Part shown: positions 7,226 to 7,292 of the stretch, one piece after another
How positions within the stretch are numbered: the stretch's first letter is position 1
Layout of the letters: each line of letters opens with the position of its first letter
Source: a virus
Lineage: Duplodnaviria; Heunggongvirae; Uroviricota; Caudoviricetes
DNA: 8,847 nucleotides
Reading direction: 5' to 3' (one strand)
Virus record (IMG/VR): IMGVR_UViG_2534681993_000021
Location: 1 to 8,847 of that record
Program-made: the position numbers and the translations under genes
Notes under the pieces: generated by a model
The model's database searches: none
What the model was told of the DNA's origin: nothing
Seen by the model: only the letters and a program-made list of their open reading frames with translations

Positions 7226-7254
7226 AGATTAGCCATGACTAACAATTTGGTCAA
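7226..7254 (-). promoter_or_regulatory. Leftward early promoter (PL / dicB-operon-like) with embedded operator
   Basis: On the minus strand: -35 TTGACC (7254-7249), 17-nt spacer, -10 TAATCT (7231-7226). The 14-bp operator TTAGCCATGACTAA (7229-7242) overlaps the spacer and -10. A second copy, TTTGCCATGACTAA (7267-7280), lies just upstream of the -35. Confidence 0.5.
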
Positions 7255-7292
7255 GTATTTTTGTTTGCCATGACTAACATTTTGGGCAACCA

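What the first reader, a model, noticed from the sequence alone, without database searches (positions are those of the whole stretch)
7226..7292. Leftward early promoter with operator inside the spacer, separated from the repressor gene by a terminator
TTGACC-17 nt-TAATCT on the minus strand has an operator copy inside it and another just upstream, suggesting tight, possibly cooperative repression of the leftward operon that leads to xis and int. A hairpin terminator at 7293-7323 insulates it from repressor-gene readthrough.
Basis: inference. Interest (0 to 1): 0.4.

Follow-up and report, generated by a model that had tools for sequence, protein, structure and literature searches.

The report
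Known DicA-repressed early-left prophage promoter
This is the early leftward promoter of a lambda-like prophage in pathogenic E. coli, with its two repressor-binding sites and the terminator of the repressor gene; it matches the long-studied dicB promoter of the E. coli K-12 Qin prophage, so it is real but ordinary.

Summary
On the minus strand, TTGACC (7254-7249), 17 nt and TAATCT (7231-7226) are present. One operator copy covers the spacer and the -10 (7226-7245). A second lies 35 bp upstream (7261-7280). A 13-bp hairpin plus U5 (7323-7292) overlaps the stop codon of the repressor gene.

The repressor is 93% identical to K-12 DicA, and the next gene is ydfA. The hexamers and the inner operator are identical to the K-12 dicA-ydfA intergenic region. 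Published dicBp-lacZ fusions were built on exactly that region; they are derepressed 22-fold without dicA and 165-fold by the antirepressor Rem.

The -35 hexamer and the operator half-sites TGTTAG/CTAA are invariant in 49 distinct sequences. The layout (17-nt spacer, -10 built on an operator half-site, second operator 34-36 bp upstream, CATCAA at the start) recurs in heteroimmune relatives. The hairpin shows a compensatory G-C to A-U change.

Cooperative repressor binding and terminator function are inferred, not shown.

In passing, the transcribed leader holds a covarying hairpin or possible pseudoknot (7162-7186) that has no Rfam match. This prophage has also lost dicF-dicB.

The parts
7226..7231 (-). 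-10 hexamer TAATCT of the early-left (dicBp-type) promoter; it is built on the promoter-proximal operator half-site CTAA
   Evidence: Identical in K-12 Qin. Variants among 49 distinct E. coli-type sequences are TAATAT, TAATTT and TAACCT.
7226..7245 (.). Operator O1: the 20-mer aligned with Oc. Its core palindrome TTAGCCATGACTAA is at 7229-7242. The centre lies about -17.5 from the predicted start.
   Evidence: Half-sites are invariant and the central 6 bp vary. Its position is the same as lambda OL1, centred at about -17.
7249..7254 (-). -35 hexamer TTGACC
   Evidence: 100% invariant in 49 distinct sequences from 91 loci.
7261..7280 (.). Operator O2, upstream of the -35, centred at about -52.5. 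Its distal half-site is imperfect (CAAACA instead of CTAACA).
   Evidence: The O1-O2 offset is 34-36 bp in 51 of 60 distinct promoter contexts, including heteroimmune phages.
7218..7218 (-). Predicted transcription start: the A of CATCAA, 8 nt after the -10
   Evidence: Inference. CATC(C)AA follows the -10 by 5-6 nt in all 49 distinct promoter contexts retained by a search pattern that itself required this motif 4-9 nt after the -10. Lambda pL has CATCAG at its start (the start coordinate 35582 is from memory). The K-12 primer O-PR124 homology arm ends at this A.
7292..7323 (-). Intrinsic-terminator-like hairpin at the 3' end of the repressor gene: arms 7323-7311 and 7305-7293, loop 7310-7306, U5 at 7296-7292
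   Evidence: -16.8 kcal/mol, z -5.05. There are three stem alleles, including a compensatory G-C to A-U change.
7315..7722 (-). DicA-type repressor gene (135 aa, HTH only, no S24 peptidase domain)
   Evidence: 93% identical to K-12 DicA; HTH_3, Phage_CI_repr.
7149..7217 (-). Transcribed leader. It contains hairpin A (7198-7213) and a covarying hairpin or possible pseudoknot (7162-7186) that ends 6 nt before the ydfA Shine-Dalgarno sequence.
6996..7148 (-). ydfA (DUF1391), the first gene of the leftward operon
   Evidence: DUF1391, E = 9e-30.
7772..7791 (.). Oc-type operator between the repressor gene and the cro-like (dicC) gene. It overlaps the start region of the rightward promoter TTGACT-17-TATTTT (7745-7773, + strand).
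   Evidence: In K-12, DicA binding to Oc was inferred from in vivo assays (PMC3441716).

Best explanation
The region 7218-7280 is the pL-type early-left promoter of a lambdoid prophage with DicA/DicC immunity. It is the ortholog of dicBp of the K-12 Qin prophage.

Proposed mechanism:
- RNA polymerase with sigma-70 uses TTGACC-17-TAATCT and starts at about A7218. It transcribes the leader, ydfA, the exonuclease gene, xis and int.
- In the lysogen, the 135-aa DicA-type repressor binds as a dimer to the palindromic operator O1 (7226-7245). O1 occupies the spacer and the -10 hexamer, so polymerase is excluded.
- A second, intrinsically weaker operator O2 (7261-7280) lies on the other side of the -35 hexamer, 35 bp away. 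It probably adds to occupancy.
- The cro-like DicC protein recognises the same TTNG...CNAA sites.
- The repressor gene is read in the same direction as the promoter it controls. The hairpin plus U5 at its 3' end (7323-7292) ends repressor transcripts before they run into the leftward operon.

Shown: the sequence features, their conservation, and their identity to the experimentally defined K-12 element.

Inferred: the start site, binding at O1 and O2 in this prophage, cooperativity, and termination.
For: - Sequence features are present.
- Orthology: the repressor is 93% identical to DicA. The intergenic region is 93% identical to K-12, with hexamers and O1 unchanged. The annotated neighbours are dicA, ydfA and dicC.
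- Experiments on the ortholog: the dicBp-lacZ fragment and primers map onto this sequence. DicA represses it 22-fold and Rem induces it 165-fold.
- Oc is a DicA operator by in vivo assays, and one base change abolishes the effect attributed to binding.
- DicC ChIP-seq infers a site on each side of dicA, with a palindromic motif TT(A/C/T)G...C(G/A/T)AA.
- Phylogenetic footprint: the -35 and the half-sites are invariant, while the segment between the hairpin and O2 is highly variable.
- The same layout recurs in a Citrobacter genome, a Serratia genome, a Klebsiella phage, a Stenotrophomonas phage, PPompW and mEp460, each with different operator sequences.
- O1 sits where lambda OL1 sits, and lambda has a terminator hairpin after rexB in the equivalent place.
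- The hairpin energy is significant and its stem shows a compensatory change.
Against: - The -10 is poor (3 of 6 positions). The generic scan did not flag the promoter, and matches of this quality are not enriched over shuffles.
- No transcript 5' or 3' end was available for this prophage or, in the papers I could read, for K-12.
- The Reg-Seq authors note that the DicA site at dicB is low-evidence and that its location is unknown. Operator occupancy at O1 and O2 is therefore still a sequence prediction.
- O2 is degenerate in K-12: 11 of 17 positions match O1.
- A 35-bp spacing is 3.3 helical turns, which does not place the sites on the same face.
- The hairpin stem has only 4 G-C pairs. The K-12 allele has a 4-U tail and -11.4 kcal/mol.
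Confidence: 0.88

Rival explanations
1. The element is a decayed relic: the sequence looks like dicBp, but in this prophage it no longer fires or no longer matters.
For: The prophage has lost 1,578 bp that include dicF and dicB. The -10 is weak.
Against: The hexamers, spacer length and operators are intact and match the consensus of 49 distinct sequences. The repressor ORF, dicC, xis and int are intact. Phages deposited as complete genomes (PhiR42_1, mEp460) carry the same architecture.
Confidence: 0.06
2. The two repeats are not promoter operators. They would instead be protein roadblock or termination-assisting sites, or recombination module-boundary sequences left between the repressor gene and ydfA.
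For: Mosaic junctions do occur in this neighbourhood in other loci: L071, L072, L073 and L075.
Against: The repeats match the operator Oc, for which DicA binding is inferred from in vivo assays. They keep a fixed register with the -35 and -10 hexamers across heteroimmune phages whose operator sequences differ. The K-12 fragment has DicA-dependent promoter activity.
Confidence: 0.03
3. The hairpin at 7293-7323 mainly serves as a 3' stabiliser of the repressor mRNA, or as a bidirectional barrier, rather than as an insulator of the leftward operon. This reading is compatible with the main explanation for the promoter.
For: The hairpin has an A-run on one side and a U-run on the other, so it looks bidirectional; the scan lists it on the + strand. 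The Citrobacter and Serratia relatives lack an obvious hairpin at this position. The K-12 allele is weak.
Against: The hairpin sits at the end of the repressor gene, directly before the operators. Lambda t_imm occupies the same relative position. Hairpins also occur there in the Klebsiella, Stenotrophomonas and mEp460 relatives. A compensatory change preserves the stem.
Confidence: 0.25

Closest known systems
dicBp, the promoter of the ydfABC-dicF-dicB operon of the E. coli K-12 Qin prophage, controlled by DicA and DicC (Bejar et al. 1988, cited from memory; Ragunathan et al. 2023, PMC10448788)
   Same: The position is the same, between the dicA-type gene and ydfA. The -35, spacer length, -10 and inner operator are identical. 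The Oc-type operator on the other side of the repressor gene is the same. There is a hairpin at the repressor stop codon in both.
   Different: The upstream operator O2 is much better preserved here (15 of 17 matches to O1, against 11 of 17 in K-12). The terminator stem is stronger (-16.7 against -11.4 kcal/mol, with U5 against U4). The operon behind it lacks dicF and dicB and runs into an exonuclease gene, xis and int. Oc differs at two central positions.
Lambda pL with OL1-OL3 and the t_imm terminator after rexB
   Same: It is a leftward early promoter downstream of, and co-directional with, the repressor operon, separated from it by a hairpin terminator. The proximal operator is centred at about -17. 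The start context is CATCA(G/A). GACGCAC-like sequence occurs in the leader of some relatives.
   Different: There are two operators 35 bp apart, not three 17-mers 20-24 bp apart. The repressor is short and lacks the cleavage domain. There is no N gene and no boxA/nut site in the window. OL1-OL2 cooperativity is established for lambda CI; it is untested here.
P22 immC (C2 repressor and its operators)
   Same: The DicA N-terminal domain is 59% identical to P22 C2 over residues 8-70. The operators are palindromes with TTA(A)G...C(T)TAA arms; the P22 operator consensus is from memory. The cro-like protein hits Pfam P22_Cro.
   Different: C2 is a 216-aa RecA-cleavable repressor, whereas DicA-type repressors are inactivated by an antirepressor (Rem) in K-12. 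The number and spacing of operators differ.

Membership tests
dicBp-type (DicA-repressed) early-left promoter | It lies directly downstream of, and co-directional with, a dicA-type repressor gene and upstream of the first early-left gene (ydfA). | tested here: met
   ORFs and annotation. DicA identity is 93%. DUF1391 hit.
dicBp-type (DicA-repressed) early-left promoter | It has the same sigma-70 hexamers and 17-nt spacer as the experimentally used K-12 dicBp fragment. | tested here: met
   Alignment. Primers O-PR124 and O-PR241/242 of PMC10448788.
dicBp-type (DicA-repressed) early-left promoter | A DicA operator (Oc-like palindrome TTGTTAG..CTAACAA) overlaps the promoter. | tested here: met
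   Sequence match. Oc is defined in PMC3441716. Protein binding itself was not tested.
dicBp-type (DicA-repressed) early-left promoter | It is repressed by DicA and derepressed by repressor loss or by an antirepressor. | not testable with these tools
   Shown only for the K-12 ortholog.
dicBp-type (DicA-repressed) early-left promoter | A primary transcript 5' end lies 7-8 nt downstream of the -10. | not testable with these tools
   Inferred from the CATCAA motif found at this distance in the retained contexts (where the pattern required it), the lambda pL start context, and the primer design.
Intrinsic (Rho-independent) terminator | A stable stem-loop is followed directly by a U-tract on the transcribed strand. 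| tested here: met
   13-bp arms, 5-nt loop, then U5. -16.8 kcal/mol, z -5.05. The stem has only 4 G-C pairs.
Intrinsic (Rho-independent) terminator | The structure is maintained in evolution through compensatory changes. | tested here: met
   GCA/UGC changes to ACA/UGU in four distinct sequences. The K-12 allele keeps a stem with one bulge.
Intrinsic (Rho-independent) terminator | Transcripts end at the U-tract. | not testable with these tools
   No 3'-end data were found.
Lambda/P22-type tripartite OL operator | Three tandem operators lie about 20-24 bp apart. | tested here: not met
   Only two copies are present, 35 bp apart.
nut site (boxA + boxB) in the leader | A boxA sequence CGCTCTT(T)A lies next to a boxB hairpin, with a second site in the rightward operon. 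| tested here: not met
   There is no boxA within 1 mismatch anywhere in the window. The leader motif is single-copy in the window and in the complete phage PhiR42_1.
HK022 put antiterminator RNA in the leader | Sequence or structure similarity to putL/putR, with paired L and R copies. | tested here: not met
   The HK022 pL and pR leaders were read. The leader model gives no hit in HK022 (best 10.5 bits, E = 0.46). The motif is single-copy.

The most novel reading that the evidence does not exclude
The most novel reading concerns the RNA the promoter makes, not the promoter itself. The leader carries a compact conserved element at 7162-7186: GUUC-CGCU-A-CCCC-GGCG-UUAA-GGGG. It would be a covarying hairpin whose loop can pair with the conserved 5' flank to give an H-type pseudoknot, ending just before the first gene's ribosome-binding site. 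The element is shared by the early-left leaders of many heteroimmune lambdoid prophages. It has no Rfam match. It could be an undescribed cis-regulatory RNA, acting in translation control, mRNA stabilisation or antitermination of the early-left operon.
Probability: 0.3. Interest if true: 0.5.

Novelty: already known. Interest (0 to 1): 0.15.

Why it matters
The element is the switch point that keeps the early-left genes of a DicA-immunity prophage silent in a Shiga-toxin/EPEC-type E. coli background. [quoted passage not shown] The biology is already established for the K-12 ortholog.

The added value here is modest. Comparison shows that the two-operator layout, 35 bp apart with the -10 built on an operator half-site, is a conserved design across heteroimmune phages of this repressor family. 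It also gives a sequence-level placement of the DicA sites at dicBp, which the Reg-Seq authors describe as unknown. The conserved leader RNA motif is the only part that might repay new experiments.

Tried and rejected
- Generic promoter and terminator scan. It does not list the promoter, and it lists the hairpin only on the + strand, because it counts the U-run as stem.
- Chance test of the hexamers. They are not enriched over shuffles, so the consensus match was dropped as evidence.
- Rfam on the whole window at E <= 1. There is nothing in the region.
- nut hypothesis for the leader. There is no boxA and no second copy.
- put hypothesis. The HK022 putL/putR regions were read and show no similarity.
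- Nested-fold energy of the leader. It is not better than shuffles (z = +0.39).
- RNAalifold on 10 diverse leaders. It recovers only the S2 hairpin; hairpin A could not be aligned.
- Literal sequence search of the paper library for the leader motif. No paper was found.
- Search for a mapped start site. The Thomason dRNA-seq paper is not held. The other papers read give no start coordinate.
- Scan of genome contigs with the repressor. It gave only 5 loci.
- Scan of viral contigs with the repressor alignment. It returned only close relatives, 92-100% identical. Diversity came instead from the phage collection and from a leader DNA pattern. That pattern biases the covariation set, because the invariant columns were fixed by the search pattern.

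Full report
**What is in the sequence.** The window is the left arm of a lambdoid prophage.
- nleC lies at 808-1794 on the + strand.
- On the minus strand lie the integrase gene (2585-3880), the excisionase gene (3900-4151), an 819-aa exonuclease gene (4221-6680), a 187-aa ORF (6433-6996), ydfA/DUF1391 (6996-7148), and a 135-aa helix-turn-helix repressor gene (7315-7722).
- On the + strand follow a P22_Cro-type gene (7806-8036) and a ydaT-like gene.
- Between the repressor gene and ydfA, the minus strand reads TTGACC (7254-7249), 17 nt, then TAATCT (7231-7226).
- The 13-mer GCCATGACTAACA occurs exactly three times in the window: twice here, 35 bp apart, and once inverted in the palindrome TTGTTAGTCATGGCTAACAA at 7772-7791, between the repressor gene and the cro-like gene.
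- One copy (20-mer 7226-7245) covers most of the spacer and the whole -10. The other (7261-7280) lies just upstream of the -35.
- A hairpin with 13-nt arms and a 5-nt loop (7293-7323) contains the repressor stop codon. On the minus strand it is followed by U5. It folds at -16.8 kcal/mol, z = -5.05.

**What does not count as evidence.** TAATCT matches TATAAT at only 3 of 6 positions, so the generic scan does not report this promoter. Sites of equal quality are no more frequent in the window than in shuffles: 12 against 16.8 +/- 4.4. The case rests on orthology and conservation.

**Orthology to a characterised element.**
- The 841 bases around the finding are 100% identical to a prophage of E. 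coli O145:NM. They are about 88% identical to the dicA-ydfA-dicC locus of K-12.
- The repressor is 93% identical to DicA, and its recognition helix region is unchanged.
- In the K-12 alignment, the -35, the 17-nt spacer length, the -10 and the inner operator core are identical. The leader is nearly identical.
- Ragunathan et al. 2023 (PMC10448788) call this promoter dicBp. The homology arm of their in-locus fusion primer is CACTTGACCGATATGTTAGTCATGGCTAATCTTGTTTGCA. Their out-of-locus fragment runs from the hairpin loop to about +20.
- That fragment is 22-fold derepressed in a dicA deletion. The in-locus fusion is induced 165-fold by the antirepressor Rem.
- Yun et al. 2012 (PMC3441716) concluded from in vivo assays that DicA binds the 20-bp inverted repeat Oc, TTGTTAGTCATAACTAACAA, and that one base change abolishes this. 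The window's copy differs from the K-12 Oc at two central positions.
- A DicC ChIP-seq study infers DicC sites on both sides of dicA, with a motif TT(A/C/T)G...C(G/A/T)AA (PMC11430063).
- The Reg-Seq paper notes that the DicA site at dicB is low-evidence and that its location is unknown. Placing the operators at dicBp remains a sequence inference, here as in K-12.

**Conservation.**
- I compared 49 distinct sequences from 91 E. coli-type loci. The -35 hexamer and the operator half-sites TGTTAG and CTAA are invariant.
- The six central operator positions vary by transitions.
- The -10 varies only to TAATAT, TAATTT or TAACCT.
- The stretch between the hairpin and O2 is highly variable.
- The distal half of O2 is always imperfect (CAAACA or CATACA). 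O2 therefore looks like a tuned weak site.
- More distant relatives with 53-75% identical repressors keep the design although their operator sequences differ. They are a Citrobacter genome, a Serratia genome, a Klebsiella phage, a Stenotrophomonas phage, PPompW and mEp460.
- That design is a TTGNNN -35, a 17-nt spacer, a -10 built on the operator half-site (C)TAA, a second operator 34-36 bp upstream (51 of 60 distinct contexts), and CATC(C)AA 5-6 nt after the -10.
- PhiR42_1 and mEp460 are deposited as complete phage genomes and carry the same layout.

**Comparison with lambda.**
- In lambda, the cI-rexA-rexB operon ends in a hairpin terminator. OL3-OL2-OL1/pL follow on the same strand. The sequence after the -10 is GAGCAC-ATCAG.
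- The lambda pL start is the A of CATCAG (coordinate 35582, from memory). This puts OL1 at about -17.
- By the same register, the window's start is A7218, O1 is centred at -17.5 and O2 at -52.5.
- The K-12 primer arm ends at the same A.
- The arrangement works like lambda pL but differs in three ways: two operators instead of three, a short non-cleavable repressor, and no N gene or boxA.

**The terminator.**
- The stem occurs in three alleles. GAUAACGCA/UGCGUUAUC is the form in the window (-16.7 kcal/mol, U5). GAUAACACA/UGUGUUAUC is a two-sided G-C to A-U change (-14.8 kcal/mol, U6). The K-12 form has one bulge (-11.4 kcal/mol, U4).
- Hairpins also follow the repressor gene in the Klebsiella, Stenotrophomonas and mEp460 relatives. 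There is no obvious hairpin in the Citrobacter or Serratia relatives.
- The insulating role is a reasonable inference from position and from the lambda analogy. It is untested.

**Verdict on the finding.** It is the dicBp-type early-left promoter with its operators and the repressor-gene terminator. Cooperativity between O1 and O2 is plausible, given the conserved spacing and the weak O2. However, 35 bp is 3.3 helical turns, and no binding data exist.

**Beyond the finding: the leader.**
- The roughly 70-nt leader (7218 to 7149) is conserved well beyond the immunity group.
- It has a 5' hairpin (7198-7213) whose stem sequence differs between phages.
- It also has a compact element, GUUC-CGCU-A-CCCC-GGCG-UUAA-GGGG (7186-7162), that ends 6 nt before the ydfA Shine-Dalgarno sequence.
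- A pattern scan of viral contigs found this element behind several different pL promoters. In Rac-like prophages it lies behind a small upstream gene. It usually sits 9-21 nt before the start codon of unrelated first genes.
- The CCCC/GGGG helix covaries. Its outer pair is CG 11, GC 5, AU 2. Its inner pair is CG 10, UG 4, GC 2, UA 1. None of 500 shuffles reach the observed score.
- The possible second helix, CGCY/RGCG, would make an H-type pseudoknot. It can be tested only at one pair, which gives C-G 30, U.G 23, U-A 6 and non-pairs 6 of 65.
- The invariant columns were fixed by my search pattern, so this set is biased.
- The element occurs once per genome. It has no Rfam match. It does not resemble HK022 put. 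It gives no excess folding energy as a nested structure.
- In Citrobacter L005 and in L143 it is followed by a hairpin plus a perfect boxA. In Serratia L006 it is followed by a strong intrinsic terminator. An antitermination role therefore cannot be excluded.
- Its function is open.

**Other points noted.** Compared with the O145 prophage, the window lacks 1,578 bp between 17-bp repeats (junction 6492-6508). The missing segment holds DicF (Rfam 77 bits) and dicB.

Noticed in passing
window 7149-7218 (minus strand); core 7162-7186: The leader of the early-left transcript carries a covarying hairpin, or possible H-type pseudoknot: GUUC-CGCU-A-CCCC-GGCG-UUAA-GGGG. It lies just upstream of the ydfA ribosome-binding site. 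It is shared by many heteroimmune lambdoid prophages, occurs once per genome, and has no Rfam match. Its function is unknown.
   Followed up: partly
window 6492-6508 (junction); L002 5925-7502: Relative to the otherwise 99.9-100% identical O145:NM prophage, the window lacks 1,578 bp between 17-bp repeats. The deletion removes DicF (Rfam RF00039, 77 bits, in L002), dicB and a DUF1482 gene. It truncates a hypothetical gene onto the exonuclease gene, so this prophage has lost its cell-division inhibitors.
   Followed up: yes
window 7725-7738: TTAG-CTAATG-CTAA lies next to the repressor start codon. It keeps the operator arms but has a different centre. It is conserved even in heteroimmune relatives as TTAG(A/C/T)ATTA.CTAA. 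It contains TAGCAT/TAGAAT, which could be the -10 of a near-leaderless PRM-like repressor promoter. [quoted passage not shown]
   Followed up: no
window 7745-7791: The rightward promoter TTGACT-17-TATTTT has the Oc-type palindrome (7772-7791) over its start region. This is the dicC promoter/operator equivalent, and it lies 511-546 bp from the two leftward operators.
   Followed up: partly
window 808-1794: The type III effector gene nleC (Peptidase_M85, E = 8e-113) lies beyond the integrase end of the prophage. The whole window matches STEC O145/O26-type prophages at up to 99.4-99.9% identity over the aligned parts. No complete E. coli genome in the collection holds it in one uninterrupted piece.
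   Followed up: partly
L005 2090-2140; L143; L006 2080-2105: In some relatives the leader motif is followed by a hairpin plus a perfect boxA (CGCTCTTTAA[A/C]AA), the hairpin-then-boxA order that I recall (from memory) for rrn operons. This occurs in Citrobacter L005 and in L143. In Serratia L006 it is followed by a strong intrinsic terminator (GCCCCG-UGCGU-CGGGGC-AUUUUUUU). This hints at antitermination or attenuation in the early-left leaders of those phages.
   Followed up: no
L094, L096, L107, L150, L111, L161 and others: A second conserved leader module, CAGGCAGGAnGCCCACGAAGTAGCyGCC..GGCrTAyGAA, sits either before or after the leader motif in different prophages. In E. coli Rac-like loci the corresponding stretch reads as the end of a small ORF.
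   Followed up: no
L072, L075, L071, L073: These are natural deletion or recombination variants. In L072 and L075 the sequence after TAATC of the -10 joins directly to the DicF region. In L071 and L073 the junctions fall inside the leader motif.
   Followed up: no
L003 (JAIIUG010000151.1): A 2.5-kb contig labelled as a Collinsella sp. MAG carries an E. coli Qin-type dicA-ydfA segment. This is probably a binning contaminant.
   Followed up: no
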